Origin: a virus
Taxonomy: Duplodnaviria > Heunggongvirae > Uroviricota > Caudoviricetes
IMG/VR virus record: IMGVR_UViG_2778261316_000005
Direction: 5' to 3' (one strand)
DNA length: 31,488 bases
The notes beneath the pieces were generated by a model, which saw nothing but the letters and a program-made list of their open reading frames with translations, made no database searches and was not told where the DNA came from. This document shows positions 1-31,488 of the stretch, one piece after another; within the stretch, counting starts at the first letter, position 1; every line of letters starts with the position of its first letter. Position numbers and translations under genes: made by a program.

Positions 1-678
1 ATGTCAAAGACCACTTGCAGGAAATGTGGAAGCGAAGTAGAGCGAAAAGAGAAAAAATGCCCTTACTGTGCAGCAAAAAACCCAGGCATGAGATGGTGGA
101 AGCCGGTGATATTTATCATTGTCCTGGTCGCGCTACTCAAGGCTTGTTCGTACATACCTGATCCAGATCCGGCAAATCTTAGAAACAAAAATACCACCCT
201 CAAAGAATGGCGCAGCATGCTAAGAGATGACAGGTTGAAGTTTATTGATAGCTACCTTGCGCAAGAAAAAATCATCACCTCCGATACTGGTGGATTCTAT
301 AAATGCATCAGCCAGCACTCATATACGAAAAATGATGAGATTAAAGTTGATGAAGCTCTTGGCTGGTGTAAACAAGACTACCTTAAGAATCCCTCGGCTC
401 TATACCAGATGATTGATTTCGACAGATTTATCAGCAACACACGAAAATCTGACAGCTCTTACATCCCCATTACCAGGGATATAAAAAATAAGATGAACGA
501 CCCTTCATCATTCAAGCATCTTGAAACTAGCTATCGGTTTGTACTGGATAATTCAACACCGTATGCGATAGTCACCACGGTCTATCAAGGAAAAAATGCT
601 TACGGTGCGTCCGTCAAAAACTCGATAAAAGCCAAAGTTGACCTTTCCTCCGGCAGCGTAATTGAATATCTCAATTAA
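1..678 (+). CDS. hypothetical protein with N-terminal zinc ribbon (CxxC-x11-CxxC), one transmembrane helix and a ~170 aa C-terminal domain; AT-rich, probable cargo or host gene
   Basis: 225 aa ORF starting at nt 1 with ATG; MSKTTCRKCGSEVERKEKKCPYC followed by hydrophobic WWKPVIFIIVLVALL; GC roughly 40% versus mid-50s for the phage; followed by a hairpin terminator. Confidence 0.55.
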   Translation: MSKTTCRKCGSEVERKEKKCPYCAAKNPGMRWWKPVIFIIVLVALLKACSYIPDPDPANLRNKNTTLKEWRSMLRDDRLKFIDSYLAQEKIITSDTGGFYKCISQHSYTKNDEIKVDEALGWCKQDYLKNPSALYQMIDFDRFISNTRKSDSSYIPITRDIKNKMNDPSSFKHLETSYRFVLDNSTPYAIVTTVYQGKNAYGASVKNSIKAKVDLSSGSVIEYLN

Positions 679-684
679 ACAAAA

Positions 685-704
685 AGCCCCGCAATTGCGG
701 GGCT
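685..704. terminator. bidirectional intrinsic terminator between convergent ORF1 and ogr
   Basis: Perfect 20-nt palindrome AGCCCCGCAA/TTGCGGGGCT flanked by A5 on one side and T5 on the other. Confidence 0.7.
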
Positions 705-707
705 TTT

Positions 708-956
708 TCACATTGCAAAACTGAGTTGATCGTTACCGTAGTGCGATGCGGGAAACGCATCTGAGGGAATGAAATCAGCCGGTAACTTTTCGCGGGGGGC
801 GCGTTTGGTTACCAGTTTCTCAACGCTGTTGAGCGTAGTAAACGTAATACTGCATTCGAAATTCTGGCACTGGTGATAATGCCGGACTGTCATTTCACTA
901 AGATGGCGACTGGTGCGCGTACGGGCGACGGCACCACAAACAGGACACTTAAACAT
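708..956 (-). CDS. ogr: Ogr/Delta-family zinc-finger late transcription activator
   Basis: MFKCPVCGA...RTSRH...RHYHQCQNFECSITF closely resembles P2 Ogr (MFHCPLCQH...RTSRY...RYHQCQNVNCSATF), including the Cys4 zinc motif. Confidence 0.9.
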   Translation of the reverse strand: MFKCPVCGAVARTRTSRHLSEMTVRHYHQCQNFECSITFTTLNSVEKLVTKRAPREKLPADFIPSDAFPASHYGNDQLSFAM

Positions 957-1001
957 AATGGCCTCCCATGGCGGGAGTTGAACTCGCTCATATTATGGCC
1001 G

Positions 1002-2156
1002 CTATGATTCGGTTTCTGCAATCCATTCAGGTATTTTTGCTTCCAGCTCCAGACGTGTTTTAAACCCACTATCGTCAATAGTGTGGCTTGCCTTCGCAAT
1101 TACCCAGTCCTGTCCGTCAATGACGTCTTTGAAGTCCGTTACCGTTCCGTGCATCTCCGGATACAGATCCGCGCGCCCGTAAGCCAGGGTTAGAGAGAAT
1201 TCAGCAGCTCCGCGCTGGAGTTGTTGCCATTTTGCAGCTGCTGCACGTTGTGCGGCCATCTCGCTGCTGTACGTCGTACGGAGTACAAAAACGTTACCAT
1301 CTTCACCGGCAATATAGTCCCCTTCCCGGCTGCTGCTGCGCGGCTTTTTATCTGCGGTTTTCTTCCGCTTTTTAACAGTGACCTTTTTCTTTTTCCCGAA
1401 ATCCATATCCAGCCAGTACGCCTGCACGCCAGTGTATGCGTCGCGATCTGCAATCCGGAAAGAATGGCGATCTCCACTGCTGCGCGTGATGGAAAATTCC
1501 GGCAACGCTCTGCCGTTTGCGCTTACACCACCACCAGGCAGGATGAAGAGCAGGTAACCATTTTTCACAGTTGCAATAGCGCCCAGCATTTCCGCCATGC
1601 GCGTCAGAAACGACATATCGCTTTCCTGCGTCTGATCTGCATGATCGATCTCGGCGGACATCAGTTGCTCTGAGATGAGAGGTTTTAACTTGTACCTGTG
1701 AGCTATAGCAGAGACGATGCGCTCTACTGTAACGTCATGCCACGACACCTCCCGCTTAACGTTAAATTCATCGCGGAAATCTGCACTTCTGGCCGTGATC
1801 TCGATACGGTCCGGCGGCCCTGAGTGCGCAATTTCATCCACGATGAAAATCCCTTTGTGTACCAGTTTTTCTCCCTGCCAGCCTATCGCTACCGATAATT
1901 CAGCGCCACGTGGCGGTAACTCAATATCTCCCTGGCTGTCATCAACAGTGATAGTCAGTTCATCAGCGTTAAAGCCCCTGTTATCTGTTAATTCTAACGA
2001 AAGTATTTTCTCATCCAGCATGATCAGCGCCTTGCCGCCAAGCATGACGTTAAACGCTGGCACACGTGACAGGTCGCCAGGATAATTTTTGAATTTCTCA
2101 GCACCTGCATTCAGCAGGCTTTTTGCGCTCTCTATTGCGTCAGTTGTCAGTGCCAT
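1002..2156 (-). CDS. D: tail protein gpD (late control gene D family)
   Basis: Conserved LSLELTDNRGF...GDIELPPRGAEL...DEIAHSGPPDRIEITARSADF block. Start placed at ATG 2156 (MALTT...) because of the strong RBS GGGAGGAGAAAGCG; the ORF-track start at 2237 has no RBS and would overlap the promoter dyad. Gives 384 aa, P2 D-like size. Confidence 0.85.
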   Translation of the reverse strand: MALTTDAIESAKSLLNAGAEKFKNYPGDLSRVPAFNVMLGGKALIMLDEKILSLELTDNRGFNADELTITVDDSQGDIELPPRGAELSVAIGWQGEKLVHKGIFIVDEIAHSGPPDRIEITARSADFRDEFNVKREVSWHDVTVERIVSAIAHRYKLKPLISEQLMSAEIDHADQTQESDMSFLTRMAEMLGAIATVKNGYLLFILPGGGVSANGRALPEFSITRSSGDRHSFRIADRDAYTGVQAYWLDMDFGKKKKVTVKKRKKTADKKPRSSSREGDYIAGEDGNVFVLRTTYSSEMAAQRAAAAKWQQLQRGAAEFSLTLAYGRADLYPEMHGTVTDFKDVIDGQDWVIAKASHTIDDSGFKTRLELEAKIPEWIAETES

Positions 2157-2214
2157 CGCTTTCTCCTCCCGCAAATATTTCCATGCGCGCGCGATAGGAC
2201 AAACAGCCTTTTGT

Positions 2215-2232
2215 TGTCGCCTTTCTGCTACA
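2215..2232. promoter_or_regulatory. TGT-N12-ACA dyad (Ogr-type late promoter activator site) between the divergent FI and D starts
   Basis: TGTcgcctttctgctACA; centre about 55 bp upstream of a plausible FI transcript start (FI ATG at 2308) and about 65 bp from the D ATG on the other strand. Confidence 0.45.
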
Positions 2233-2307
2233 TCCATCGCAACGTGTCTGCTGCCCGGAATTCAGCGAATATCACCATGAACTCACTAAACATGATGGCG
2301 GTAGAGT

Positions 2308-3489
2308 ATGACCGACAACCTTTTCCACGGGGCGCGCACCAAAGAAAACACCGACCTCCAGACCGCGATCAATGACATTGATTCAACGGTCATTGGTCTG
2401 GTTGCGGTGGCCGATGATGCCGATCCCCTCACCTTTCCACTTGATACGCCAGTCCTGATCACTCGCGTGATTAGCGTGCTGGGTAAGGCGGGCAAAACAG
2501 GCTCACTGTATAAATCTCTCAAGGCTATTTCCGACCAGGTCAGCACGCGTGTAATTGTTGTTCGTGTCGCTGAAGCAAAGGAAGGAGAAAATGCCAAAAC
2601 GCAATCCCAGCTCATTATCGGTGGCACGCAGGCTGACGGAAGCTATACCGGGATGTTTGCCCTGTTGACCGCAGAGCAGAAAACCGGTTATCGCCCTCGC
2701 ATCCTCGGCATTCCGATGTACGACACGCAGGAAGTGACCGCACAGCTGCGCGTAATTGCGAAGCAGCTACGTGCATTCTCTTACAGCTACTGCGATGGCT
2801 GCGAGACTATCGCCGAAGCGAAAACCTACCGCGAGCAGTTCGCAGAGCGTGAAGGGATGATGATTTGGCCCAACTTCATCGCCTTCAACCCGCAGACCGG
2901 CGTTAATGAAGAATTCCCGGCTGTTGCCTATGCGCTTGGCCTGCGGGCACTGATTGATAATGAGCAGGGCTGGCACAAATCACTTTCTAACGTTGCGGTG
3001 AAAAACGTCCTGGGTATCTCTAAAGACGTGTTCTGGGCGTTACAGGCTGAGGACTCCGACGCTAACGAGCTGAACGCTAACGAGATTACCACGCTGATCA
3101 AACGCGATGGCTTCCGGTTCTGGGGTAACCGTACCACCGACACCGAAGAGTATATTTTCGAGGTGTTTACCCGGACGGCCCAAATTCTTGCGGACAGCAT
3201 TGCGGAAGCACAATTCACCACCGTGGACAAACCGCTTACCCCGGCTAACGTCAAAGACGTAGTAAGCGGGATCAATGCCAAACTTCAGGCGCTGGTCACT
3301 GCTGGCAAACTGATTGGTGCTGCATGCTGGTTTGATATTGTCGATAACCCGACCACCGGTATTCGCCAGGGTAAAGCTGTTGTTCGCTACAACTACAGCC
3401 CCGTACCACCGCTGGAAAACCTGACGCTGATCCAGACGTTTACCGATCAGTATTACGAACCAGCCTTTGCATCGCTGGGAGGTGCATAA
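2308..3489 (+). CDS. FI: contractile tail sheath protein gpFI
   Basis: 393 aa; strong similarity to P2 FI throughout (LRAFSYSYCDG..., GWHKSLSNV..., TTLIKRDGFRFWGNRT..., YSPVPPLENLTLIQ). Confidence 0.95.
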   Translation: MTDNLFHGARTKENTDLQTAINDIDSTVIGLVAVADDADPLTFPLDTPVLITRVISVLGKAGKTGSLYKSLKAISDQVSTRVIVVRVAEAKEGENAKTQSQLIIGGTQADGSYTGMFALLTAEQKTGYRPRILGIPMYDTQEVTAQLRVIAKQLRAFSYSYCDGCETIAEAKTYREQFAEREGMMIWPNFIAFNPQTGVNEEFPAVAYALGLRALIDNEQGWHKSLSNVAVKNVLGISKDVFWALQAEDSDANELNANEITTLIKRDGFRFWGNRTTDTEEYIFEVFTRTAQILADSIAEAQFTTVDKPLTPANVKDVVSGINAKLQALVTAGKLIGAACWFDIVDNPTTGIRQGKAVVRYNYSPVPPLENLTLIQTFTDQYYEPAFASLGGA

Positions 3490-4005
3490 ATGGCTATTCC
3501 GAAGAAACTCCGCCTGTTCACGATGTTTGTCGATGGCGACAACTACATCGGGAAGATCCCCAGCGTCACGCTCCCCAAAATTACCCGCAAAACGGAAGAT
3601 TATCAGGGTGGCGGGATGCTTGGCTCCGCTGCTGTTGACCTCGGCCTTGATTCAGGTGCACTGGATGCATCAATGGTTGTTGGCGGCATGGTCGAAGAGC
3701 TGATCCTGAAATGGGGCGGGGATATTGACGAACTACGCACGCGCTTTGTCGGTGAGATCTACAGCGGTGGAACAAGTTCCCTGCTTGAGGTCGAGATGCG
3801 CGGACGTATTACCGAAGTTGACCAGGGCGAAGCCAAGCAGGGTGATGACACCAGCCATACTTATGCGCTCAAAAATACGTATTACAAGCTCTCCGTGGAT
3901 GACAAGCCTTTGCTGGAAATCGACCTGCTGAACTTCATCTACAAGCGCAACGGCAAGAGTCTCTACCCGGACCGCATTGCGTCCGCCCTGGGCCTCGGCC
4001 AGTAA
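3490..4005 (+). CDS. FII: tail tube protein gpFII
   Basis: 171 aa; MAIPKKLRLFTMFVDG...VTLPKITRKTEDYQGGGMLGS matches the P2 FII N-terminus; RBS GGAGG upstream. Confidence 0.95.
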   Translation: MAIPKKLRLFTMFVDGDNYIGKIPSVTLPKITRKTEDYQGGGMLGSAAVDLGLDSGALDASMVVGGMVEELILKWGGDIDELRTRFVGEIYSGGTSSLLEVEMRGRITEVDQGEAKQGDDTSHTYALKNTYYKLSVDDKPLLEIDLLNFIYKRNGKSLYPDRIASALGLGQ

Positions 4006-4058
4006 TCTTTTTTAACCACTACCAATGGCGGCCAGCCTGGCCGCCCGGAGAAAGAATA

Positions 4059-4358
4059 ATGTCAGTAATTCTCAGCCAACCCATTAAACGCGGCGACCAG
4101 GAAATCAAATCCGTCGCAATCACCGACACAATCAAGCAGGCTGGCTCACTGCGCGGGCTGCGTCTGGTTGACGTTCTTAACTTCGACTATGACGCGGTAT
4201 CAACTCTGTTGACACGCGTCACCGCGCCTCAGCTGACAACCACTGATATTTCCTCAATGGCGACCGGCGACTTTACGGCGCTGTGCGAAGAAATCACGCC
4301 TTTTTTGACGAAAGCGGCGCCGTCCGCACCGAGCGAGGCGGCGACGGCGAGCAAGTAA
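4059..4358 (+). CDS. E: tail assembly chaperone gpE (zero-frame product)
   Basis: 99 aa; position between FII and tape measure; contains the slippery heptamer TTTTTTG at 4301-4307. Confidence 0.85.
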   Translation: MSVILSQPIKRGDQEIKSVAITDTIKQAGSLRGLRLVDVLNFDYDAVSTLLTRVTAPQLTTTDISSMATGDFTALCEEITPFLTKAAPSAPSEAATASK

Positions 4359-4531
4359 GAGAGGCAGTATTCAGCGATGTCGACGATCTGATCGCTGACA
4401 TCGCTGTGATATTTCACTGGCCGCCCTCCGAAATGCACAGCATGGAGTTGCGCGAGCTGATGGCCTGGCGCGAACGGGCGGCCATCAGAAGCGGTAACCA
4501 TGAGAAGGAGGATGACGACGATGGATCTTAG
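4059..4531 (+). CDS. E': gpE+E' fusion produced by programmed -1 ribosomal frameshift at TTTTTTG (4301-4307)
   Basis: The -1 frame continues open from the slippery site (…PF|FDESGAVRTERGG…) to 4531, overlapping the tape-measure start, as in P2 E/E'. Confidence 0.75.
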
Positions 4532-7493
4532 TATTCGCGTTGCGTTCAGTGCAATTGACAAGCTCACCCGCCCGGTCAGCGCCGCCAGTAAAGCCATTGG
4601 CGGCCTTTCTGACTCCCTCAAAAAAACACAGTCTTCCATCAGAGACCTGGAAAAAAGCGCAACGTCATTTGATAAGCTGCGCTCGCAAGCCAATGACACT
4701 GCGCAGAAGCTGAAAAGCACCCAGCGGGCCTTTGACGGTCTCAACCAGAAACAACGCGAAGGCGGCCAGCTTACTGAAGCCCAGACGGCACGACTTGAGT
4801 CGCTTCGCACCAAACTTTCCCGGCTGACTGAAACCTACAGCAGGCAAACGACGCAGCTGCGCACAGCTGCGCAGGCAGTGCGCCAGCATGGGGTTAACCT
4901 CACCACCGGCAGCGGCGCCATTCAGAGTGCCATCAGGCGTACGGAGCAATACAACCAGACGCTTGAGCGCGAACGTCGCCAGCTGGCAGCTACCCAGAAA
5001 GCCCAGGCCAGATACGATCGGGCAAAAGAGACTGCGGGCAAACTTCGCGGTGCTGGTATGGGTATGATGCTTGGCACTGCTGCTGCGGGCTATGCTGGCG
5101 GATCATTCCTGGCGCCTGCGATTGGTTTCGACGAGGAAATGTCACGTGTCCAGGCATTAACCCGCCTTAACAAAGACTCTTCCCAGATGGGAGATCTGCG
5201 GGCGCAGGCTAAAAAACTCGGTGCAGAAACCGCATTCACCTCACGCGATGCAGCCAGCGGGCAGGCATTTCTTGCAATGGCTGGCTTTACCCCAGAAGCT
5301 ATTCAGGCGGCATTGCCCGGCGTTCTGAATATGGCGCTGGCCGGCGGCATGGATCTTGGTGAAAGTGCCGACATCAGCTCCAACATTCTTTCGCAGTTCC
5401 GTCTCGATCCAAAGGAAATGGATCGGGTCAGTGATGTTTTGACCGCAGCATTTACCCGTACCAACACCGATTTAATGAACATCGGTGAGGCTATGAAGTA
5501 TGCAGGAACCGGGATGGCCGGTCTTGGCGTTGATGTTGAACGCACAACCGCCATGATCGGTGTAATGGCGAACGTTGGCCTGCGCGGAAGTATTGCAGGT
5601 ACGGGACTGCAAACCACCTTCTCGCGTCTGGCCGCACCAACAGGTAAAGCTCAGGCAGCCCTGAAAGAATTGGGCGTTTCTGTTGCCGATGCCACCGGAA
5701 AAATGCGACCGGCCGAAGTGGTCCTGTCTGATATTTATAAATCTATCAAAAAGTACGGTGACACAGACCAGTTGTCATTCTTCAAAGACATAGCAGGTGA
5801 GGAAGCAGCAAAGTCATTTCAGGCGCTGGTTAGATCGGCTGGTAGCGGTGAGCTGCAAAAACTCCTTGCCGATTTGCGCGGCTCTCAGGGTGAAGCGCAG
5901 AAGGCAGCGAAGGTCATGGCTGACAACCTCAGCGGTGATCTGAAAAACCTGGACAGCGCATGGGAGGGTTTCCGCATTCAGGTTGAGGAGACTGCCGACG
6001 GCCCTCTGCGCTCTCTCACTCAGGGGCTTAGCGATATGATCACCGCTGCCAGCACCTGGGTAAAAGAAAACCCCCGCCTGACACAAACAATCATTCTGGT
6101 TGTCGGTGGGGCACTCGCACTGGTTGCGGCAATTGGCGCTGCGTCACTGGCGATGGGTATTCTTATTGGCCCCCTCACCAAACTTCAGCTCGGTTTTTCA
6201 CTGCTGACCGGTGGTCGCGGGCTACTCGGCACCATTGCAGCTTTTCGCACTCTCGGCACTGTCGCGGGCCCGGCCATGGCGAACGTCAGAGGATGGTCCG
6301 TCGTACTGTCAGGAATCGCCCCTAACCTGGGAAGAATTTCAGCTATTCTCCCTGCGGTTCGCTCTGGTCTGCTTACCGCATTCCTGTCTCCTGGCGCACT
6401 TTTGGGATCGCTGACTAAAAACATTGGCATGTTGCTGTTGCGCCTCACTGGCTTGCCAGCAATCTGGGGCATGATCACCGGTGCGGTATCTATTCTTGGT
6501 GGGGCTTTATCTTTCTTACTCAGTCCAATAGGCCTGATTGGCGCCGCATTTGTCGCTGCGGGGTTGCTAATCTGGCGATACTGGGAACCCATTAAGGCGT
6601 TTTTCCTCGGTATGTTTACCGGAGTTATGCAGGCGATTTCACCTCTCAGGGATACCTTTGCCACCTTTTCCCCCATCTTTGACATGATCAGCAATGGGGT
6701 TAAATCCGTCTGGCAGTGGTTTACGAACCTCTTATCGCCAGTGCAGACCAGCAAGGAGACGCTTGATAAATGCACGAGCGCTGGGGAGACTTTCGGTAAC
6801 GTGCTCGGCGGGGCAATTAACCTTGTTCTGACCCCCGCAAAAATGCTCCTTGATACTTTAGGCTGGATACTCGAAAAGCTTGGCGTGTTACCCGATGAAG
6901 CAGAGAGGGCGAGCAAGAAACTGGATACCGCGAGAGCCAAAGCCAACGACCTGACTCCCAAAAAACCAGTTTCATGGGAGTGGGACCCACAGCAAAAGAA
7001 AATGGTCCAGAAGGAATGGAACTGGTCCCCCAAAAAAGCAGAGTCGCCAGTTGCTACTGGCGCACCACCAGGGGCCTCGCCACTGTCAGGAAATACCGGT
7101 ACGCAAAGACGTCTGCAAAGCATCGCAGACAATACAAAAGCAACCGCTGACAACACCAAGAAAGTCGGTCCGGGCGACATTATTTTCAAAAACCTGCCGC
7201 GTGCTCTGGCTTTGCGTGGCGCATACCAGGAAGCGCGTGTCACACCGCAATCAGTACCGCGAGTGGCAACACCCGCAGCTGGCGGCATTATTTCAGCGAC
7301 AGCAGCCACACAGGCTCCGGTATCAGCTCCTGTTACCGCTCCGACCGGCGGTGCCCCAGTTTTTAACATTACCTTTAACGATGTTGGTAAGCGCACGGAT
7401 CAGGAGCTGGAGAGAATGATGCGCAATGTTGTGCGTGATGCGATGGCCAGCACCGGCAGAATTAACCGTGGTTCTTTCCGCGACAGAGATTAG
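4521..7493 (+). CDS. T: tail tape measure protein gpT
   Basis: About 990 aa with coiled-coil N-terminal part, hydrophobic Gly/Ala-rich central segments and a C-terminal region; start placed at the ATG 9 nt after AGGAGG (the ORF is open from 4500). Confidence 0.9.
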   Translation: MDLSIRVAFSAIDKLTRPVSAASKAIGGLSDSLKKTQSSIRDLEKSATSFDKLRSQANDTAQKLKSTQRAFDGLNQKQREGGQLTEAQTARLESLRTKLSRLTETYSRQTTQLRTAAQAVRQHGVNLTTGSGAIQSAIRRTEQYNQTLERERRQLAATQKAQARYDRAKETAGKLRGAGMGMMLGTAAAGYAGGSFLAPAIGFDEEMSRVQALTRLNKDSSQMGDLRAQAKKLGAETAFTSRDAASGQAFLAMAGFTPEAIQAALPGVLNMALAGGMDLGESADISSNILSQFRLDPKEMDRVSDVLTAAFTRTNTDLMNIGEAMKYAGTGMAGLGVDVERTTAMIGVMANVGLRGSIAGTGLQTTFSRLAAPTGKAQAALKELGVSVADATGKMRPAEVVLSDIYKSIKKYGDTDQLSFFKDIAGEEAAKSFQALVRSAGSGELQKLLADLRGSQGEAQKAAKVMADNLSGDLKNLDSAWEGFRIQVEETADGPLRSLTQGLSDMITAASTWVKENPRLTQTIILVVGGALALVAAIGAASLAMGILIGPLTKLQLGFSLLTGGRGLLGTIAAFRTLGTVAGPAMANVRGWSVVLSGIAPNLGRISAILPAVRSGLLTAFLSPGALLGSLTKNIGMLLLRLTGLPAIWGMITGAVSILGGALSFLLSPIGLIGAAFVAAGLLIWRYWEPIKAFFLGMFTGVMQAISPLRDTFATFSPIFDMISNGVKSVWQWFTNLLSPVQTSKETLDKCTSAGETFGNVLGGAINLVLTPAKMLLDTLGWILEKLGVLPDEAERASKKLDTARAKANDLTPKKPVSWEWDPQQKKMVQKEWNWSPKKAESPVATGAPPGASPLSGNTGTQRRLQSIADNTKATADNTKKVGPGDIIFKNLPRALALRGAYQEARVTPQSVPRVATPAAGGIISATAATQAPVSAPVTAPTGGAPVFNITFNDVGKRTDQELERMMRNVVRDAMASTGRINRGSFRDRD

Positions 7494-7502
7494 GTGACGA
7501 TT

Positions 7503-7991
7503 ATGATGATGGTTTTTGGAATGTTCGTTTTTATGCTGCGCACCACCCCTTACCAGCAACTCCAGCACTCGCAGGAGTGGAGGCACGTAAAAAACGAGCG
7601 GGTTAACCAGTCAGCTGGCTGGCAGTACATTGGCGCCGGTGATGACAATATAACGCTGTCAGGCGTCCTTTACCCGGAAATCACCGGTGGAAATCTCTCG
7701 CTGTCAGCCCTTGAAACTATCGGCTACGCAGGGCGCCCATGGCCCCTTATTGAGGGTACGGGGCGTATTTATGGTATGTACGTTTTAACACGTCTGGAGC
7801 GGGGCAAGTCCGAGTTTGACCGATTTGGGAATCCAAAAAAAATCGAATTCACCCTCAGCCTGAGCCGTGTCGATGCGGATTACAGGGAGAAGCTACAAAG
7901 CTCGACCGTCAGCGATGCCCTGGCGGGGTTAAAGACGAGTGCAAATAATGCGATAAACCAGGTGAAAGACTCGCTCAACGGCCTGTTTTAG
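7503..7991 (+). CDS. U: tail protein gpU
   Basis: MMMVFGMFVFMLRTTPYQQL...WRH matches the P2 U N-terminus (MMMVLGLFVFMLETAPFQEL); AGGTGA RBS 5 nt upstream. The ORF-track GTG at 7494 lies inside the RBS. Confidence 0.9.
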   Translation: MMMVFGMFVFMLRTTPYQQLQHSQEWRHVKNERVNQSAGWQYIGAGDDNITLSGVLYPEITGGNLSLSALETIGYAGRPWPLIEGTGRIYGMYVLTRLERGKSEFDRFGNPKKIEFTLSLSRVDADYREKLQSSTVSDALAGLKTSANNAINQVKDSLNGLF

Positions 7992-7998: not shown

Positions 7999-8567
7999 TT
8001 AAGCCCCTTCATGTTCCCTTCTTGCTGAAGGGAACTTTTTATAAAGCGTCGACATTCCGACATCAAAAATAATAGCCACCCGCTGTCGTTTCTCCCCTGC
8101 GGCTATCAGTCTTCCCGCCTGTTCCCATTGCTGCTTTGTCAGTTTAGGTCGCCTCCCGCCTATCCTTCCTTCTGCGCGGGCAGCAACCAAACCGGTGCGG
8201 GTGCGCTCAACGATTAACTCTCTCTCCATTTCTGCCAGCGCCCCATGACGTGAAAGAAAAAGCGCCCCATAGGTGTTGAGGTATCAATGCTGTCTGTCAG
8301 GCTGCGGAAGTTAACACCGCGATTGCGTAGCTCTTCGATCATTGTCACCAGGTGTCGCATGCTCCGCCCGAGACGATCAAGCTTCCAGACAACCAGCGTA
8401 TCCCCCTCCGATAAGGTCCGTAATAAACGCTTAAGGCCCGGCCTTTCCGCTTTTGTTCCGCTTATTTTGTCTTCAAATATTTGTACACATCCTGCGCTTT
8501 CCAGTGCATTTCTTTGCAGCGCGGTGTTCTGGTCATTTGTTGACACCCTTACATAGCCGATCAGCAT
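7999..8567 (-). pseudogene. Hin/Gin/Pin/Cin-family serine DNA invertase, split by a 1-nt frameshift (or homopolymer sequencing error)
   Basis: The N-terminal ORF (8214-8567) has the catalytic motif YVRVSTNDQ and ...MGRFFFHVM; the C-terminal ORF (7999-8229) has the HTH domain ...ALAEMERELIVERTRTGL... in another frame. One base is missing in the run at 8241-8244; the joined product would be about 189 aa. Confidence 0.8.
8013..8040 (+). terminator. intrinsic terminator of the FI-U operon
   Basis: Stem GTTCCCTT / AAGGGAAC with a 7-nt loop followed by TTTTT, 22 nt after the U stop; it lies inside the 3' coding end of the minus-strand invertase. Confidence 0.6.
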
Positions 8568-8729: not shown

Positions 8730-9065
8730 ATGGGCGGAACCGGATATGCCATATTTCCGATGATGATTGGCGGTGCACGTAAGACTTTTATTATGCAATG
8801 GGGATTGCTGACGCCTCTGAAATCAGGTGGCTATGTGAATATTAACCTTCCTGTCGCTTTTCCTACTATGGTGATGCAGGCATATGCAACACATGATAAT
8901 GCGACACTAAACACACGCCCGACAGTATATGCAATTACTACAACAAGCCGAACCACTATCACTGCGACGGCGACGTGCTTAGATGCTGGCTCAGTGGGCG
9001 CTACAGTGACACGCAGTAGTGACGATACTGCGTGTTACGGTCGTTATTTTGCAATAGGGTGCTGA
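8730..9065 (+). CDS. alternative tail fibre C-terminal variable cassette (Sv'-like), silent in this orientation
   Basis: Reading frame is open back to the left gix-like site (…PANVGLGDISATGVATGSMGGTG…), with no start or promoter of its own; Gly/Thr-rich fibre-tip-like sequence; directly followed by an assembly gene. Confidence 0.55.
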   Translation: MGGTGYAIFPMMIGGARKTFIMQWGLLTPLKSGGYVNINLPVAFPTMVMQAYATHDNATLNTRPTVYAITTTSRTTITATATCLDAGSVGATVTRSSDDTACYGRYFAIGC

Positions 9066-9066
9066 A

Positions 9067-9510
9067 ATGAATCTTAAATATTTTTCTCCATCTGAAAATG
9101 CGTTTTATGCCGGGGAGCTTAAAGAAAGCTATATCGCTGCTGGCTCATGGCCTTCTGATGCCTCGGAGGTTGATGAAAGTCTTTATCTTGAGTTTATCGA
9201 TAAACCGCCAGCAGGTAAGTATCGAGGAGTGGATAATGCAGGAATGCCCTGCTGGCTTGAAATTCCTCCTCCCACAGTAGAGGAAATGGCATCGAATGCA
9301 GAGAATATAAGACAGCAGCTCATTGATAAGGCAAATGTTTATATAAACAATCGTCAGTGGCCGGGAAAAGCAGCGATAGGCCGTTTAAAGGCAGATGAAC
9401 TGGAACGATATAACCTTTGGCTGGATTATCTGGACGCACTGGAACTGGTCGATACTTCCGGTGCGCCAGATATTGAATGGCCTACGCCTCCGGCAGCTCA
9501 GGCCAGATGA
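9067..9510 (+). CDS. tail fibre assembly protein (alternative, U'-like)
   Basis: 147 aa; C-terminal ...DTSGAPDIEWPTPP motif shared with the other tfa (…TAPDVIWPELP); 3' ends of the two genes overlap convergently. Confidence 0.8.
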   Translation: MNLKYFSPSENAFYAGELKESYIAAGSWPSDASEVDESLYLEFIDKPPAGKYRGVDNAGMPCWLEIPPPTVEEMASNAENIRQQLIDKANVYINNRQWPGKAAIGRLKADELERYNLWLDYLDALELVDTSGAPDIEWPTPPAAQAR

Positions 9511-10084
9511 CATCCGGCGCGGTGCTGGTATCCGTTGCCGTCACCGCGTCAATGTAATCCAGCACAGCGTTTAATCGGGTGGTTTCTGTCTGCGTCAGCT
9601 TCCTCCCGGCCTGCAATTTCAGTTGAATCAGACTAATGGAAGCCATTGCAGTATCAATCAGTGACTGACGCTGTGCTTCTGCCGCGCTTACTGCGGCGCT
9701 ATGCTGTGCCTCAGTATCTGTCACCCATTTCTCACCATCCCATTTATCGTATGGCGTTAACGGGGCGATAGTGGTTGTATTTTCGGGGTAATCACCCAGA
9801 GCTGTGATTTCTTTGGCGTCTCCCGTTTCGGTGTTATAGACGATTTCACCGCGATGGTCTGGCACATATTCCCATGAGTTTAAATCTGCCGAACGGCAGA
9901 TTGCATAACCAGCCTTATGTATACCAGGTTCATCCAGACAGGAATATGCCGGGATACCAACACCAACGGCAAGATATTCATTTGAAGTGGAAATATATTC
10001 CCGAGTTTCACCATCATAGCTATAGACGGTAATATCCCCCGCCTTCGTGGCAATAAGCTCGCTATTTAATACAGCGTTATCCAT
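9482..10084 (-). CDS. G: tail fibre assembly protein gpG
   Basis: 200 aa immediately downstream of H (TAATG overlap); tfa-type C-terminal motif. Confidence 0.85.
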   Translation of the reverse strand: MDNAVLNSELIATKAGDITVYSYDGETREYISTSNEYLAVGVGIPAYSCLDEPGIHKAGYAICRSADLNSWEYVPDHRGEIVYNTETGDAKEITALGDYPENTTTIAPLTPYDKWDGEKWVTDTEAQHSAAVSAAEAQRQSLIDTAMASISLIQLKLQAGRKLTQTETTRLNAVLDYIDAVTATDTSTAPDVIWPELPEA

Positions 10085-11370
10085 TATGCAGCCCTCACGA
10101 TAAAGTTAAATGCAATATTTCGCGCACGTGTTTCCGTTGATGTTCTGGCAACAAGTGATGCATCAAAATAATAATTCGCCTGTTTATATGTACCACCTAT
10201 CGCAATTGGTGTGAGATTTGGTTGCACTATTGAAGAGGTAAATGCGCCGAAAGTATTATTATTTGTCCCCGTGGTCATATCAAAAAAGCTACCTGTAATA
10301 TTTTGCAGCGTATCGCTCTGAGCACTCAATAACGCTCGCCCACTGTCCACTCCACGCCCATCATCCCAGCCACGAATAAACTCACCCCGCAGATCTGGCA
10401 GCACAAGACCGGGGTAAACCAGTGCCAGCTTCGGATAATTTTCAGCTGCAAATGGAGCGCCGTTACATTTCAGCCATCCTGTTGGTGGAGTGGCTAAAGG
10501 CCACGGAACAGGCACACCAACGGGTAATGCCGAACCTTCTCCCAAACCAAGGTTTTGGAGAAACTTCGCCACGTCAGGAATATCCCCGCCGTTTTGGCCT
10601 TTCTGCATCGCCCCGGTAATTCGAGCATCATCCCCCGAGGCTACCGTTCCGGCCGTTGTTCCAACATTTCGCGTCGAGCTGTCACCCAGCTCTAAATTCT
10701 GCCGTGCTAATGCGGTATCGGGTAAGTCCGACAGGTTGCGATCTTTTGCCAGCCGTGCGCTCCCGTTATCCATCGCAATTTTAACGGCCTTCGATGTTGC
10801 CGCCTGCGACTCGCTGTCACTGGTCACACTGCTGCTGAGCTGCACAAACCCTTTCTCTGTCGTTGACGCATCCGGGTGATTACGTGACTGCTCATGCGCG
10901 CGCAGCTGGCTGTCAACATACTGGCGTGTTGCCAGAACAACAGCCGGATCAATCTTCAACGTAACGGCTTCGGTGCTGCTGACAATCAGGATCACGCGAA
11001 TAACCTGAACGCGCCCGCTCCCCTCCTGCAACTGAGGCTTATAGGTTTCTGCGCAATTGGCAATCGCCACCATATCGCCATCTTTATCGAAAAGGCCGAT
11101 CTCACGAATCCACCACCCGCCGACGTCTTCCGGTATGACCTGTTCCGCAATGATCTGGCTGGCGTTCGCCGGGTCCACCGTCAGCATATTCAGAGGGGCG
11201 CGGCGTAACTCATGTACGAGGGCAGTTTGCGCCGGATTCGGTGTAGGCAGTACACCATTGCCATCACCAACGGCCAGCTGGGTAATCTCAACTTTCGTAC
11301 CCAACGCCGTGGCTTTTGCCAGTTTTGCCGCCCCGATATTGGTCAACAGGGCAAGATATTTAGTCGCCAC
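10084..11370 (-). CDS. H: tail fibre protein gpH (constant N-terminal part plus the currently expressed variable tip)
   Basis: N-terminus ...GAAKLAKATALGTKVEITQLAVGDGNG...HPDASTTEKGFVQLSS resembles P2 H; start placed at GTG 11370 with a GGAG RBS (the ORF track extends to a TTG at 11391). Confidence 0.9.
   Translation of the reverse strand: MATKYLALLTNIGAAKLAKATALGTKVEITQLAVGDGNGVLPTPNPAQTALVHELRRAPLNMLTVDPANASQIIAEQVIPEDVGGWWIREIGLFDKDGDMVAIANCAETYKPQLQEGSGRVQVIRVILIVSSTEAVTLKIDPAVVLATRQYVDSQLRAHEQSRNHPDASTTEKGFVQLSSSVTSDSESQAATSKAVKIAMDNGSARLAKDRNLSDLPDTALARQNLELGDSSTRNVGTTAGTVASGDDARITGAMQKGQNGGDIPDVAKFLQNLGLGEGSALPVGVPVPWPLATPPTGWLKCNGAPFAAENYPKLALVYPGLVLPDLRGEFIRGWDDGRGVDSGRALLSAQSDTLQNITGSFFDMTTGTNNNTFGAFTSSIVQPNLTPIAIGGTYKQANYYFDASLVARTSTETRARNIAFNFIVRAA
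10537..10562. other. gix/hix-like crossover site inside tail fibre gene H (right boundary of the invertible segment)
   Basis: TTCTCCCAAACCAAGGTTTTGGAGAA; its reverse complement matches the left site at 19 of 26 positions with the same central TT, and the codon phase is the same (N-L-G-L-G versus N-V-G-L-G). Confidence 0.6.
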
Positions 11371-11974
11371 TTGCGATCTCCACGGTATCAATTAAATGGA
11401 TTGCTGCGCCGGTGTAGTCATTGCCACCCACAGCGATAGTTTCAGGAAAATAGGGATATATCGTCAGCGTATCGCCCACGTAACACCCCGCCCCTATCTC
11501 GATATAACCCTGAGACTGAAGCGAAAGCGAAAGGCCGGTGAGGTGACGGCTTCTGGGTTTTGCATCGTTGATCAGGCGCTCAAGCTCCCGATAAGTCTCC
11601 TCGGTGATCCCCTCATCCTGAATGCCGATTTCAAGCCGGAAAGTGCCTGGCTCCTCGCCGTTCTGCCACCACTCAATCACCCTCAGCAAATAGCCGAAAG
11701 GTTCAACAACGCGCCTCAACGCCGAAATCGTGCCTTTGTGACGATGGACAAGCCAGGAGGCTTTGATTACCTGCCTCTTGGTCTGTTCAGACCAGCGCTT
11801 ATCCCAGCGATCAACAGACAACGCCCAGGCCAGATAGGGTAAAAACTCCACGGGGCATTCATCCGGATTCCAGAGCTTTCGAAGGTCGACAGGAATACCG
11901 CTGATCCGCGCCGTCGGTTTCTCCGCATTCCGCATGAAAGTGCTGGCTGAAGGCGGCAGGAGGCTGTTATTCAT
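11360..11974 (-). CDS. I: baseplate protein gpI
   Basis: ...LWNPDECPVEFLPYLAWALSVDRWD...HKGTISALRRVVEPFGYL...TFRLEIG closely resembles P2 gpI. Confidence 0.9.
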   Translation of the reverse strand: MNNSLLPPSASTFMRNAEKPTARISGIPVDLRKLWNPDECPVEFLPYLAWALSVDRWDKRWSEQTKRQVIKASWLVHRHKGTISALRRVVEPFGYLLRVIEWWQNGEEPGTFRLEIGIQDEGITEETYRELERLINDAKPRSRHLTGLSLSLQSQGYIEIGAGCYVGDTLTIYPYFPETIAVGGNDYTGAAIHLIDTVEIASGD

Positions 11975-12863
11975 CCGTTCCCCCTACGTTGATGGTGTGC
12001 GAAATACATCGTGCCGCCTGGGTATCATCGATCACGATATCTTCCGGAGGGTTCAGCAAGACTACACGCTGCACCCCCTGCACATGCAGAGCGGCCATAA
12101 TGGCCGAACGCGCAACATCGCGACCGATTTTCCCCTGCTCTGTGAGCCATGCCCGCAGTGCATCATCTGCCGCACTCAGGATCGGCTCAGATTCCGGCCC
12201 CGGATAGAGATAAAGCAGAGAGTCAATTTCATAATTCACAATCTCCGCTGACTGGACGGTTAGCCGGTCAGCGACAGGCCGCTTATCATCCGCTGAGAGC
12301 GTGTCGTTTACTGTTGCGATCAGCTCGTTGCTAGCCGTGCCATCCCCTTCGGTAGACAGAATGGACACGACGACAACAGCGGGTGAGGGGCTGGTTGCCC
12401 TGGCATCTGCAACTTTACCGCTGGCACTCTTCGCAAAATATTCGTATGCCCCGGTAGGGCCAGCAACGCTCAACCCTTCAAAAGCGGATTGCGCACGCAG
12501 ACGCAGCGCGGTGTCGCTTTCCATCTCTGCATCGGTGGTTTCGGTAGCCGGAATACGAACCAGGCGCTCGGTGTTCAGGTTACCCGCAAGGTTATCAAGA
12601 TCGGTGGAGACGGAATGGCTCAACATGCAGGCCGCAGCCCCCTCATTGATTCGCTGGCGCAGCATTAATTCCCGGTAGGCAATCACCTGCGCCAGTATGG
12701 TCAGGGGTTCAGACTCAAGTTTTAACGCAGCGGCAACAGAAGCCTGTTGTTCATCAGGGAAAGCCGCGATCATGACGGCTTTGACATCCGCCAGAATCAC
12801 TTCAAAATCCAGCGCCTCAATAATCTGCGGCGGGGGTAGCTGCGCCAAATCAACTTGTGCCAT
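11967..12863 (-). CDS. J: baseplate assembly protein gpJ
   Basis: MAQVDLAQLPPPQIIEALDFE...RPVADRLTVQSAEIVNYEIDSLLYLYPGPESEPI matches P2 gpJ. Confidence 0.9.
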   Translation of the reverse strand: MAQVDLAQLPPPQIIEALDFEVILADVKAVMIAAFPDEQQASVAAALKLESEPLTILAQVIAYRELMLRQRINEGAAACMLSHSVSTDLDNLAGNLNTERLVRIPATETTDAEMESDTALRLRAQSAFEGLSVAGPTGAYEYFAKSASGKVADARATSPSPAVVVVSILSTEGDGTASNELIATVNDTLSADDKRPVADRLTVQSAEIVNYEIDSLLYLYPGPESEPILSAADDALRAWLTEQGKIGRDVARSAIMAALHVQGVQRVVLLNPPEDIVIDDTQAARCISHTINVGGTDE

Positions 12864-13218
12864 TGCTGCTTTTCCTGAGTGTTAAGGTTGTCGTCTGCTG
12901 TTCCATAGATTCCGTCAGAGCCCCTGACAATCCCGCCTCCACTGCTCCTGACTGCGAATAACGCACATCCACGATGCTCAGCGTGATCCGCGGCTCCCAT
13001 GTTGCCAGCGCAATAACCACTGCGCTCATCAGCTGCATGCGTGTAACGTCGTTTTGTGGACCATCAATCAGATCAGGAACGAGAGAGCCGTAGTCACGGC
13101 GCATGACCCGCGATCCAATCGGGGTGTTAAGAATGTCACTGGCTGACTGCCACACGTGGGCGGCATCCGTCAGCGTTCCCGTGCCATCAGGATTCATCCC
13201 GGTATAGCGCACCGTCAT
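12850..13218 (-). CDS. W: baseplate protein gpW
   Basis: MTVRYTGMN...PIGSRVMRRDYGSL matches P2 gpW (MTARYLGMN...PVGSRVMRRDYGSL). Confidence 0.9.
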   Translation of the reverse strand: MTVRYTGMNPDGTGTLTDAAHVWQSASDILNTPIGSRVMRRDYGSLVPDLIDGPQNDVTRMQLMSAVVIALATWEPRITLSIVDVRYSQSGAVEAGLSGALTESMEQQTTTLTLRKSSNGTS

Positions 13219-13799
13219 TTCGTGCCCTCCGTCCAGCTTCCGCCACGCTGCACTCCACCATGACCATGATCATCAACCTGCACACCGTTTGAGATGAACG
13301 CACCGCCAGTGTGCGTAAAGTCCCCCTGCATTTTGCCGCCTTCCGTAACGGTGAAATTTTTGGTTTTCAGCATCTCGGTACACTCGACCAGTGGCGTTTC
13401 CAGTAAGACCTTAACCGACGCCTCAATCGTTGCTGATTTAATACCGCTGACCTGCAAAGCCCCTGCTTCTGCGTCATAGCGAAACTTCGCTCCATCCGGT
13501 GCGGTCACGATCATTTCTTTTGCCGATATGCCTGGCGCCGGATTGTCGTTGCTGTAAAGACTTCCCCCTATGATCGCAGCGGTAGTGTTACCCCCAAGGC
13601 ACAGGAACCATACCTGCTCGCCAACAGACGGCGGCACCCAGATGCTGAAAGCGCCTGCACGCTGTGCATTCCAGCGCAGCCAGGTCGAATCCAGCTCTCC
13701 GCTTTTTACCCTTACCCGCCACTTTTCCTCGTCTATCTCCGTCACCGTACCGGTGCGAACGATGTTTTCCAGCAGGCGAATGACTTCAGCCAGATCCAT
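13215..13799 (-). CDS. V: baseplate spike protein gpV
   Basis: ...WVPPSVGEQVWFLCLGG...QVSGIKSATIEA...DFTHTGG matches P2 gpV. Confidence 0.9.
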   Translation of the reverse strand: MDLAEVIRLLENIVRTGTVTEIDEEKWRVRVKSGELDSTWLRWNAQRAGAFSIWVPPSVGEQVWFLCLGGNTTAAIIGGSLYSNDNPAPGISAKEMIVTAPDGAKFRYDAEAGALQVSGIKSATIEASVKVLLETPLVECTEMLKTKNFTVTEGGKMQGDFTHTGGAFISNGVQVDDHGHGGVQRGGSWTEGTK

Positions 13800-23027: not shown

Positions 23028-23047
23028 GCTTGCTCCCCCGCCTCGCC
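23028..23047. other. cos site (P2-type 19-nt cohesive end region), intact in the prophage
   Basis: Minus-strand reading GGCGAGGCGGGGGAGCAAGC closely resembles the P2 cohesive end GGCGAGGCGGGGAAAGCAC; located between Q and the early region as expected. Confidence 0.6.
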
Positions 23048-30129: not shown

Positions 30130-30438
30130 ATGCAACCAAGTCAAATGAAAATGGGACAAAAACTAAGAGCGATCAGGAAAGCTGAAGGGGTAACCCAAGC
30201 AAAATTCAGTGAAATCACTGGTATAGCTCTAGGCACAGTAAAAAATTACGAAGGAGGTCACTCAGATCCTGGGATTCAAATCGTTTTGCAGGTAACCAAC
30301 ACACCTCAACTACAGAAATACACGCTATGGCTGATGACTGACAAAACCTCCCCGCAGGCTGGTCAGATTGCACCGGCCCTCGCGCACATTGGGCCAGACT
30401 CGCCGGAATCAGACCAATCCGAGAAACAGACTGGCTAA
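30130..30438 (+). CDS. C: C-type immunity repressor (HTH)
   Basis: …QLQKYTLWLMTDKTSPQAGQIAPALAHIG… matches P2 C (…QFTKYTLWFMTNQIAPESGQIAPALAHFG…). Confidence 0.85.
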   Translation: MQPSQMKMGQKLRAIRKAEGVTQAKFSEITGIALGTVKNYEGGHSDPGIQIVLQVTNTPQLQKYTLWLMTDKTSPQAGQIAPALAHIGPDSPESDQSEKQTG

Positions 30439-30507
30439 CAGTTTATAAACATTACATTTTCACTATTTGTTACCAAGATAGTGATATCTGCGCCGGAGGG
30501 CTTTCTT

Positions 30508-31488
30508 ATGTCGATTAAGAAGCTCGATGATGGTCGCTACATGGTGGACATTAGACCGCGCGGGGCAGCAGGACGCCGCATCCGCAAGACGTTTGACAGA
30601 AAGGCAGAAGCTACCGCGTTTGAGCAATACACGATAGCGAACGCCAGCCAAAAAGAATGGGCTGGTAAGCGCGCCGACCGGCGGCCTTTAAGTGAGTTGC
30701 TCGATGCCTGGTGGCGGTATCACGGGCAAAACCATGAAAACGGCAAAAAGGAATTCAATCACCTTTTGAAAACAATAAGTGGCCTCGGCGATCCCGCCGT
30801 TAGCCGGTTAAGCAAAAGGGATTTAATGGATTACCGCTCAAGCCGTTTGAATGCCGGGATCAAGGCATCAACGATTAATCGCGAGATGTACCGATTATCC
30901 GGCATGTTTACGAAGTTAATACAGATAGAGGAATTTAGCGGGCAACACCCTGTTAACGGGCTTCCACCACTGGCGGAAGAAAACCCGGAAATGACATTCC
31001 TGGAGCGGGAAGAGATCAACAGTTTGCTGAGCGTGCTGGAGGGGGATTATCTGTTAGTTGCCCTACTGTGCCTGAGCACCGGCGGAAGATGGTCAGAGGT
31101 CGCCACGCTTAAGCGGTCGAATATCGTTAACTGCCGCGTCACGTTCCTGAAGACCAAGAACGGGAAAAAGCGAACGGTGCCGATCTCTGAAGAGCTGGAA
31201 AACAAGGTGAAAAAAGAGGCCAGCGGGAAGCTGTTCAAAGTGGATTATGAAAGGTTCTGCAAGATACTGCGGGCGGTGAAGCCGGATATTCCGGAAAACC
31301 AGGCAACGCACATCCTGCGACACACCTTTGCAAGCCATTTCATGATGAACGGCGGGAATATTATCGCACTGCAACAGATCCTGGGGCATGCGAATATTCA
31401 GCAAACGATGGTCTATGCGCACCTGTCGCCTGACTACCTGCAAAACGCGGTTACACTGAATCCATTGCAGGGAGGAATTGCGGCATAA
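30508..31488 (+). CDS. int: tyrosine integrase (P2 Int family)
   Basis: MSIKKLDDGRYMVDIRP… versus P2 Int MAIKKLDDGRYEVDIRP…; C-terminal catalytic region …ATHILRHTFASHFMMNGGNIIALQQILGHANIQQTMVYAHLSPDYL…; GGAGGG RBS; stop codon at the window end. Confidence 0.9.
   Translation: MSIKKLDDGRYMVDIRPRGAAGRRIRKTFDRKAEATAFEQYTIANASQKEWAGKRADRRPLSELLDAWWRYHGQNHENGKKEFNHLLKTISGLGDPAVSRLSKRDLMDYRSSRLNAGIKASTINREMYRLSGMFTKLIQIEEFSGQHPVNGLPPLAEENPEMTFLEREEINSLLSVLEGDYLLVALLCLSTGGRWSEVATLKRSNIVNCRVTFLKTKNGKKRTVPISEELENKVKKEASGKLFKVDYERFCKILRAVKPDIPENQATHILRHTFASHFMMNGGNIIALQQILGHANIQQTMVYAHLSPDYLQNAVTLNPLQGGIAA

What the first reader, a model, noticed from the sequence alone, without database searches (positions are those of the whole stretch)
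1..707. AT-rich Zn-ribbon membrane protein at the prophage edge next to ogr
ORF1 (225 aa) has a CxxC…CxxC zinc ribbon at the extreme N-terminus, one transmembrane helix and a ~170 aa C-terminal domain. It is much more AT-rich than the phage and is convergent with ogr, sharing a bidirectional terminator. In P2 the att site follows ogr directly, so this is either host DNA or a moron at the prophage end. The architecture resembles membrane-anchored sensors or exclusion proteins, but no family is recognisable to me.
Basis: partly seen in the sequence, partly recalled or inferred. Interest (0 to 1): 0.5.

Follow-up and report, generated by a model that had tools for sequence, protein, structure and literature searches.

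The report
Phage-borne Orf97-like membrane exclusion protein
The gene at the start of the window is cargo of a P2-like prophage, not host DNA; it is a membrane-anchored relative of phage 186 Orf97, which blocks phage infection, so it most likely keeps related phages out of the lysogen.

Summary
Window 1-678 (+) encodes a 225-aa protein with an N-terminal four-cysteine zinc ribbon, one membrane helix and a roughly 165-aa C-terminal domain. Its GC is 41.7% against 53.8% for the rest of the window. It is convergent with ogr (708-956, -) across a symmetric terminator hairpin at 681-708.

The gene is not host DNA. In contigs carrying the identical protein, the att core lies 238 bp upstream of the ATG. 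Homologues keep the same "gene > < ogr < gpD" arrangement at four different chromosomal sites (fieF, yccJ, copA, pgsA) and in a 35.5-kb phage-sized contig (int > gene > < ogr).

A family is recognisable. The C-terminal domain matches phrog_3403 (E 1.9e-51) and phage 186 Orf97 (about 37% identity), whose GenBank record says "expression from plasmid blocks 186 infection".

Orf97 uses a two-helix anchor instead of a zinc ribbon plus helix. Both anchor types occur in both clades of the C-terminal domain, so the anchor is interchangeable.

My best reading is a stand-alone superinfection-exclusion gene that acts at the periplasmic face of the inner membrane. Identity and location are shown; the function is inferred. 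It is a new variant of a known but poorly studied kind, of moderate interest.

The parts
1..678 (+). ORF1: 225-aa Orf97-family membrane protein (zinc-ribbon-anchored variant)
   Evidence: ORF. phrog_3403 E 1.9e-51 over residues 63-224. tblastn to phage 186 Orf97, E 5e-33, 36.6% identity. Alignment A1.
16..69 (+). Cytoplasmic four-Cys zinc ribbon (C6, C9, C20, C23)
   Evidence: Sequence. Cys conserved in the zinc-ribbon members. Sub-threshold Pfam zinc-ribbon hits. AlphaFold2 beta-hairpins, pLDDT 80-85.
94..144 (+). Single membrane helix (about residues 32-48), ending in a conserved K-A/S-C motif
   Evidence: AlphaFold2 helix 33-48. Charge balance predicts N-in/C-out. The PS51257 lipobox pattern is not met because K sits at position -2.
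187..675 (+). Predicted periplasmic domain (residues 63-225): helical lobe about 67-145 with invariant C102 and C123, and alpha+beta lobe about 150-224
681..708 (.). Symmetric GC-rich hairpin shared by ORF1 and ogr (terminator-like)
   Evidence: -20.8 kcal/mol, z -5.65.
708..956 (-). ogr, the late-gene activator, convergent with ORF1
   Evidence: Pfam Ogr_Delta E 1.9e-18.
1002..2237 (-). gpD tail gene; relatives annotate the 384-aa form, which would end at 2156
   Evidence: ORF. PF05954 Phage_GPD in the homologous loci.
30130..30438 (+). P2-type C repressor. Co-oriented with int, and with ORF1 once the genome is circularised
   Evidence: phrog_147 E 3.2e-37.
30481..31488 (+). Integrase at the other prophage end; attR lies just beyond the window
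   Evidence: Pfam Int_N and Phage_integrase. The att core follows int in the E. coli relative.

Best explanation
ORF1 is an accessory gene (moron) of a P2-like prophage. It sits in a variable slot between the phage attachment site and ogr, and it belongs to the Orf97 family of P2/186-like phages.

The protein is a single-pass inner-membrane protein. A small zinc ribbon sits in the cytoplasm, one helix crosses the membrane, and a two-lobed, probably disulfide-bonded domain sits in the periplasm.

By analogy with 186 Orf97, it most likely mediates superinfection exclusion. In this reading the periplasmic domain, tethered at the inner-membrane surface, interferes with genome delivery by incoming P2/186-like phages after adsorption. 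The N-terminal part serves mainly as an interchangeable membrane anchor.

Shown: gene structure, phage location, family membership, anchor swapping. Inferred: topology, the disulfide, expression in the lysogen, the exclusion function and the step that is blocked.
For: Location:
- The att core (AAAAAACCCCCACATCATGTGGGGGAAGACAGGGATGGTG) lies upstream of ORF1 and again after int in E. coli C 236-04A.
- The same core sits 238 bp before the ATG in six contigs carrying the identical protein. Host flanks diverge to its left and the phage side is conserved to its right.
- The reconstructed empty site is intact in 4591 of 5426 E. coli genomes.
- Homologues of 45-79% identity keep the "gene > < ogr < gpD" arrangement at yccJ (Klebsiella), copA (Citrobacter, Serratia, Pantoea) and pgsA (Photorhabdus).
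- A 35.5-kb contig has C > int > gene > < ogr.

Family:
- phrog_3403 E 1.9e-51.
- 36-43% identity to Orf97 of 186, of Peduovirus phages and of VHML.
- 15 invariant columns across 50 members, including two Cys.

Function lead:
- The GenBank note on 186 Orf97 reads "expression from plasmid blocks 186 infection".

Anchor interchangeability:
- Clade A of the periplasmic domain holds zinc-ribbon members and a two-helix member (P0078, 68% identical to P0015).
- Clade B holds two-helix Orf97 and zinc-ribbon members (P0039 at 61% and P0080 at 65% to Orf97).

Envelope location:
- The charge balance predicts N-in/C-out.

Moron features:
- GC is 12 points below the phage.
- The gene has its own terminator.
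- Upstream there is a conserved RBS and a TTGCAA-N18-TTTAAT element shared with the Klebsiella lineage.
- The slot is variable: it holds a different gene in E. coli PCP06171 and nothing in E. coli 6409.
Against: - No experiment bears on this protein. The only functional datum is a one-line database note on a 37%-identical relative expressed from a plasmid, and I could not retrieve the primary paper.
- In 186 the gene lies in the LexA-controlled tum operon. Here there is no tum, no LexA box and a P2-type C/Cox switch, so timing and role may differ.
- The upstream promoter-like element lacks the critical A at -10 position 2 and fails the scan, so expression in the lysogen is unproven.
- PADLOC has no model for it.
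- The last 75-aa module also occurs in non-phage chromosomal contexts, so it is not intrinsically an anti-phage module.
Confidence: 0.6

Rival explanations
1. ORF1 is an ordinary host chromosomal gene that happens to abut the prophage, with the att site lying between ORF1 and ogr.
For: The AT-rich composition differs from the phage.
Against: The att core is upstream of ORF1, and no core or repeat lies at 679-707. Only 1 of 5426 E. coli genomes has the gene, and the empty site lacks it. It moves with ogr to four att sites in six genera and lies inside a phage-sized contig between int and ogr.
Confidence: 0.01
2. ORF1 is a lysogenic-conversion factor that benefits the host envelope, for example a membrane-tethered HdeA-like periplasmic chaperone or an inhibitor of periplasmic enzymes like the Tai4/Rap1a immunity proteins, rather than an anti-phage function.
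Confidence: 0.12
3. ORF1 is a transmembrane sensor or signal transducer. The periplasmic domain senses a signal and the cytoplasmic zinc ribbon passes it on to DNA, RNA or a partner protein, in the manner of an anti-sigma factor.
Against: The zinc ribbon is replaced by a two-helix hairpin with no cytoplasmic domain in close relatives of both clades. There is no HxxxCxxC anti-sigma motif and no adjacent sigma factor or regulator, since the gene stands alone between att and ogr. The ribbon spans only about 20 residues.
Confidence: 0.08
4. ORF1 is processed as a lipoprotein at the conserved L-K-A-C49 motif and acts like the Llp or Cor outer-membrane lipoproteins by masking a receptor.
For: The hydrophobic stretch is short (about 11-13 residues) and followed by a conserved K-[AS]-C in the closest subfamily, with S at +2. 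The alternative cargo in the same slot is a true lipoprotein.
Against: The Cys is absent from the Photorhabdus/Xenorhabdus zinc-ribbon members and from Orf97. Profile comparison shows no homology to the lipoprotein cargo family (probability about 1%).
Confidence: 0.05

Closest known systems
Phage 186 Orf97 (NP_052294.1), phrog_3403
   Same: Homologous C-terminal domain of about 165 aa: 36.6% identity by tblastn at E 5e-33, and about 39% over the last 165 aa. Both have the invariant Cys pair and the WDGSY..P and G.NAYG motifs. Both have an N-terminal membrane anchor and are carried by P2/186-like phages as non-essential cargo.
   Different: Orf97 has a two-helix hairpin anchor and no zinc ribbon. 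It lies after tum in the LexA-controlled p95 operon near cos, whereas ORF1 stands alone between att and ogr in a phage with a P2-type C/Cox switch, with no tum and no LexA box. ORF1 belongs to a separate clade of the periplasmic domain.
P22 SieA (inner-membrane superinfection exclusion protein)
   Same: [quoted passage not shown] This is the kind of mechanism proposed here.
   Different: No sequence relationship was detected by any library searched. SieA was not compared with ORF1 directly, and no exclusion step has been measured for ORF1.
HdeA/HdeB/YmgD and the T6SS immunity proteins Rap1a/Tai4 (small helical periplasmic fold)
Cystatin/NTF2-like periplasmic domains (VirB8, TraM, DotI)
   Different: The similarity is weak and partial, with no sequence match. 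The module forms its own widespread and unnamed sequence family: 1279 cluster representatives at E <= 0.001 match ORF1 as a whole, and many of them match only this module.

Membership tests
Orf97 family (phrog_3403) | Significant sequence similarity across the C-terminal domain | tested here: met
   phrog_3403 E 1.9e-51, residues 63-224 against profile positions 81-241 of 243. tblastn E 5e-33 to 186 Orf97. 15 invariant columns in 50 sequences.
Orf97 family (phrog_3403) | N-terminal membrane anchor with an extracytoplasmic C-terminal domain | tested here: inconclusive
   Predicted helix 33-48, charge bias N-in and an invariant Cys pair. This is prediction only; there is no experimental topology.
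Orf97 family (phrog_3403) | Carried by P2/186-like phages as accessory cargo | tested here: met
   Inside the att boundaries, at four att sites in six genera, and in a phage-sized contig.
Orf97 family (phrog_3403) | Second gene of the LexA-controlled tum operon, as in 186 | tested here: not met
   No tum; the window has C and Cox. No LexA box upstream. Different locus. This is a feature of 186 rather than of the protein family, since VHML ORF47 follows gpD.
Orf97 family (phrog_3403) | Blocks infection when expressed | not testable with these tools
   Known only for 186 Orf97, from the GenBank note.
Bacterial lipoproteins (Llp/Cor-type exclusion lipoproteins) | Lipobox before the Cys (PS51257 pattern) | tested here: not met
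   The regex fails on ORF1 because of K at -2 and passes on the alternative cargo lipoprotein.
Pfam zinc-ribbon families (PF13240, PF13248, PF12773) | Score at or above the gathering threshold | tested here: not met
   17.6, 13.7 and 15.6 bits against cut-offs of 25, 27 and 27.3. The CxxC-x10-CxxC pattern is present and conserved, so it works like a zinc ribbon without passing the curated cut-offs.
HdeA/HdeB acid chaperones | Sequence family membership | tested here: not met
Zinc-binding anti-sigma factors | HxxxCxxC motif and an adjacent ECF sigma gene | tested here: not met
   No His precedes the CxxC. The neighbours are att and ogr only.
Known anti-phage defence systems (PADLOC-DB 2.0) | Match to any defence-protein model | tested here: not met
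   0 families for ORF1 and for 186 Orf97 at E <= 1.

The most novel reading that the evidence does not exclude
The Orf97 periplasmic domain, an HdeA-like helical lobe plus a cystatin-like lobe tethered to the inner membrane, could define a mechanistically new class of injection blockers aimed at the tail tip or tape measure of contractile-tailed P2-like phages.

The ogr-att slot could also be a cargo hotspot not listed among the known P2 hotspots. Because C > int > attP > ORF1 are co-oriented in the circular genome, expression of its cargo might depend on whether the genome is integrated: read-through from the C-int operon would reach the gene only when it is not.
Probability: 0.2. Interest if true: 0.6.

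Novelty: new variant of a known kind. Interest (0 to 1): 0.35.

Why it matters
Superinfection exclusion at the envelope is well described for only a handful of proteins (P22 SieA, T4 Imm/Sp, T5 Llp, HK97 gp15). The 186 Orf97 phenotype has been on record for decades without a mechanism or a curated family model.

This locus shows three things:
- The family is broader than the 186-type protein.
- Its business end is a two-lobed periplasmic domain that accepts different membrane anchors.
- In one P2-like lineage it occupies a variable slot between att and ogr. A 2026 survey of P2 defence hotspots did not list this slot among its hotspots (PMC13586616).

The result gives a well-defined single-gene candidate for testing how contractile-tailed temperate phages are excluded. 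It is not a surprise to specialists, and the function is still inferred.

Tried and rejected
- **att core or direct repeats inside the window.** None found. The window runs from the ORF1 ATG to the int stop, so both att copies lie outside it.
- **Pfam, NCBIfam and PADLOC models for the C-terminal domain.** None exists.
- **Profile search against PDB sequences.** Nothing below E 0.04.
- **Foldseek against PDB.** Nothing below E 0.07.
- **Foldseek against BFVD.** Only uncharacterised phage proteins and lipoproteins, best E 1e-4 over 72 columns.
- **The afdb50 library.** Not available.
- **A genome-contig scan with the single protein.** It returned one locus only, in Pantoea.
- **Possible homology between ORF1's last module and the alternative slot cargo.** The lead was a weak phrog_2320 hit (E 0.012) and a similar-looking G.NA.G motif. 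Both hhalign comparisons (profile against sequence, profile against profile) gave about 1% probability, so I rejected it.
- **Lipoprotein reading.** Rejected on the lipobox rule.
- **LexA control as in 186.** No box found.
- **Promoter call.** The scanner finds none upstream. The conserved TTGCAA-N18-TTTAAT element remains only promoter-like.
- **Literature.** The primary paper on the 186 SOS operon is not held. A 2024 review of exclusion (PMC11436027) had no mention of phage 186 in its text when searched for '186'. The 2022 P2 hotspot paper (PMC9122126) had no hit for 'orf97'.
- **Rfam.** No RNA family anywhere in the window.

Full report
**The observation.** Window 1-678 (+) is an ATG-initiated ORF of 225 aa.
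- The protein starts with C6-x2-C9 ... C20-x2-C23. It then has a hydrophobic stretch at about 35-46 that AlphaFold2 models as helix 33-48, a short low-confidence Pro/Asp-rich linker, and a confidently folded domain from about residue 63 to the end (pLDDT 89-97).
- Pfam zinc-ribbon models hit only below their cut-offs. The four Cys are nevertheless conserved in every zinc-ribbon-bearing relative.
- ORF1 has 41.7% GC against 53.8% for the rest of the window, lower than any other 678-bp window.
- ogr lies convergent at 708-956 (Ogr_Delta, E 1.9e-18).
- The 29-bp gap between them holds a symmetric hairpin at 681-708 (-20.8 kcal/mol, z -5.65).
- The description is therefore correct.

**Host or phage.** The window runs exactly from the ORF1 ATG to the integrase stop, so neither att copy is inside it. 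No core or repeat is found there.
- One complete E. coli genome of 5426 carries ORF1, at 97.5% identity. In that genome the prophage sits between fieF and cpxP.
- A 45-bp direct repeat (GATAAAAAAAACCCCCACATCATGTGGGGGAAGACAGGGATGGTG) occurs about 200 bp upstream of ORF1 and again after int.
- Joining the left flank, one core and the right flank rebuilds a sequence that is intact in 4591 of 5426 E. coli genomes. That sequence is the empty site.
- Six contigs from different hosts that encode the identical ORF1 protein carry the same core 238 bp before the ATG. Their sequences diverge to the left of the core and are conserved to its right.
- ORF1 is therefore inside the prophage.

**The gene travels with ogr.** Homologues keep the "gene > < ogr < gpD" arrangement wherever the phage is integrated:
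- next to yccJ in Klebsiella (79-80% identity);
- next to copA in Citrobacter, Serratia and Pantoea;
- next to pgsA in a Photorhabdus remnant;
- in a 35.5-kb Serratia contig with the order C > int > gene > < ogr, which is the order expected for a non-integrated genome.

**The slot itself varies.**
- E. coli PCP06171 has the same att site and a 94%-identical ogr. Between them it carries a different gene, a 131-aa lipoprotein of phrog_2320.
- A related prophage in E. coli 6409 has ogr next to its att site with nothing in between, as in P2.
- A 2026 survey of P2 defence hotspots does not list an ogr-att hotspot among those it names (PMC13586616).

**Family.** Residues 63-224 match phrog_3403 at E 1.9e-51.
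- tblastn against 50,697 phage records finds 36-43% identity to Orf97 of phage 186, Orf97-like proteins of Peduovirus, Yersinia, Salmonella and Erwinia phages, and ORF47 of Vibrio phage VHML. No record covers 80% of ORF1, because the N-terminus differs.
- Orf97 and VHML ORF47 begin with two hydrophobic helices instead of a zinc ribbon plus one helix.
- A profile search recovers 210 proteins, nearly all 225-250 aa; the named ones listed are all from Enterobacterales.
- An exhaustive HMMER search finds 1279 cluster representatives at E <= 0.001 and 118 at E <= 1e-10. Many share only the last 75 residues, again behind zinc-ribbon-plus-helix or plain helix anchors.
- One of these module-only proteins lies in a non-phage chromosomal context beside flagellar genes.
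- Pfam, NCBIfam and PADLOC have no model for the domain.

**Anchor swapping.** Pairwise identities over the last 165 residues separate two clades.
- Clade A (54-77% among its members) holds ORF1, P0002, P0012 and P0015, which have zinc ribbons, and P0078, which has the two-helix anchor and is 68% identical to P0015.
- Clade B (48-92%) holds 186 Orf97 and P0022, which have two helices, and P0039, P0048, P0050, P0080 and P0107, which have zinc ribbons and are up to 65% identical to Orf97.
- Both anchors therefore occur in both clades. This argues that the conserved activity lies in the C-terminal domain and that the N-terminus is mainly a tether.

**Structure.** A 50-sequence alignment gave a model with mean pLDDT 88.
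- Foldseek against PDB found nothing below E 0.07.
- These are weak fold resemblances at 5-13% identity. They fit a periplasmic location but do not give a mechanism.
- C102 and C123 are invariant, consistent with a periplasmic disulfide; this is an inference.
- The charge distribution predicts N-in/C-out.
- The conserved K-A/S-C after the helix looks lipobox-like. It fails the PS51257 rule and is absent from more distant members.

**Regulation.**
- The prophage has a P2-type C repressor and Cox, and no tum. No LexA box precedes ORF1.
- A good RBS (AAGGAAG) and a TTGCAA-N18-TTTAAT element are conserved between the fieF-site and Klebsiella lineages, although the rest of the upstream region differs. 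The element lacks the key A of the -10 hexamer and is not called by the scanner.
- Expression in the lysogen is therefore unproven.
- In the circular form, ORF1 lies downstream of and co-oriented with C-int. Read-through across attP is conceivable only when the genome is not integrated. This is speculation.

**Conclusion.** ORF1 is a phage-borne, stand-alone member of the Orf97 family with a different membrane anchor and a different genomic position from the prototype.
- The most likely role is superinfection exclusion at the periplasmic face of the inner membrane. This is analogous in kind to P22 SieA (PMC10883804), with no sequence relationship detected by the libraries searched.
- Identity and location are near-certain. 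The function rests on a single database note for a 37%-identical relative, and I rate it at about 0.5-0.6.
- Rivals in descending order: an envelope-fitness factor, a sensor, a lipoprotein receptor mask. The host-gene reading is refuted.
- It is a new variant of a known, little-studied kind, of moderate interest.

Noticed in passing
window 7999-8567 (-): The Hin/Gin-type invertase (Resolvase domain, E 2.2e-40) is split into 117-aa and 76-aa ORFs by a 1-bp deletion in a C-run near 8240, relative to the E. coli C 236-04A copy. Either the tail-fibre inversion switch is frozen or this is a homopolymer sequencing error.
   Followed up: partly
window 2308-7991 (+) against 708-2237 (-) and 9482-14440 (-): The tail block from sheath to gpU is inverted relative to gpD/ogr and to the fibre and baseplate genes, unlike the P2 gene order as I recall it. 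All relatives examined share this arrangement.
   Followed up: no
window 8730-10084: Alternative tail-fibre C-terminus (Gp53-like_C) and two oppositely oriented tail-fibre assembly genes lie next to the invertase. This is an invertible host-range segment.
   Followed up: no
window 22846-23319 (-): A 157-aa ORF lies between the replication gene A and the portal gene, the classical P2 defence hotspot. It has no Pfam or PHROG match.
   Followed up: partly
L023 2515-2976 (-) (E. coli PCP06171); L024 (E. coli 6409): The slot between att and ogr holds a different cargo in PCP06171, a 131-aa lipoprotein of phrog_2320 with unknown function. It is empty in a related prophage of strain 6409. Profile comparison shows no homology between that lipoprotein family and ORF1.
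   Followed up: yes
fieF-cpxP intergenic region (L001 about 7752-7796; L002 about 9522-9567): The att core overlaps a terminator-like hairpin that reads towards fieF, in the direction of cpxP transcription. The reconstructed empty site is intact in 4591 of 5426 complete E. coli genomes, so about 15% have it interrupted and it appears to be a frequently used integration site.
   Followed up: partly
window 28258-29058: A second AT-rich patch (GC 42-45%) in the early region includes ORF 28784-29056, phrog_12038, of unknown function.
   Followed up: no
L029 4001-4495: A 164-aa protein made of a zinc ribbon, a helix and only the last 75-aa module of ORF1 sits in a non-phage context between a two-component system and flagellar genes. 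The module is therefore not phage-specific.
   Followed up: partly
L028 2339-4717: In a 35.5-kb Serratia contig, C, int and the ORF1-like gene are co-oriented across attP. Transcription from the C-int operon could reach the cargo gene only in the non-integrated genome. This is untested.
   Followed up: no
L027 4001-8354: In Photorhabdus asymbiotica a zinc-ribbon Orf97-like gene and ogr survive without the adjacent tail genes, beside CesT-chaperone and Fic-domain genes. It looks like a prophage remnant that kept the cargo.
   Followed up: no
L010 5847-5854; L002 about 9420-9445: TGTGGACA-type repeats flank the att core: one between the core and ORF1, two after int. From memory they resemble P2 integrase arm sites. 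The single copy in L010 is not statistically unusual, since 44 of 200 shuffles have at least one.
   Followed up: partly
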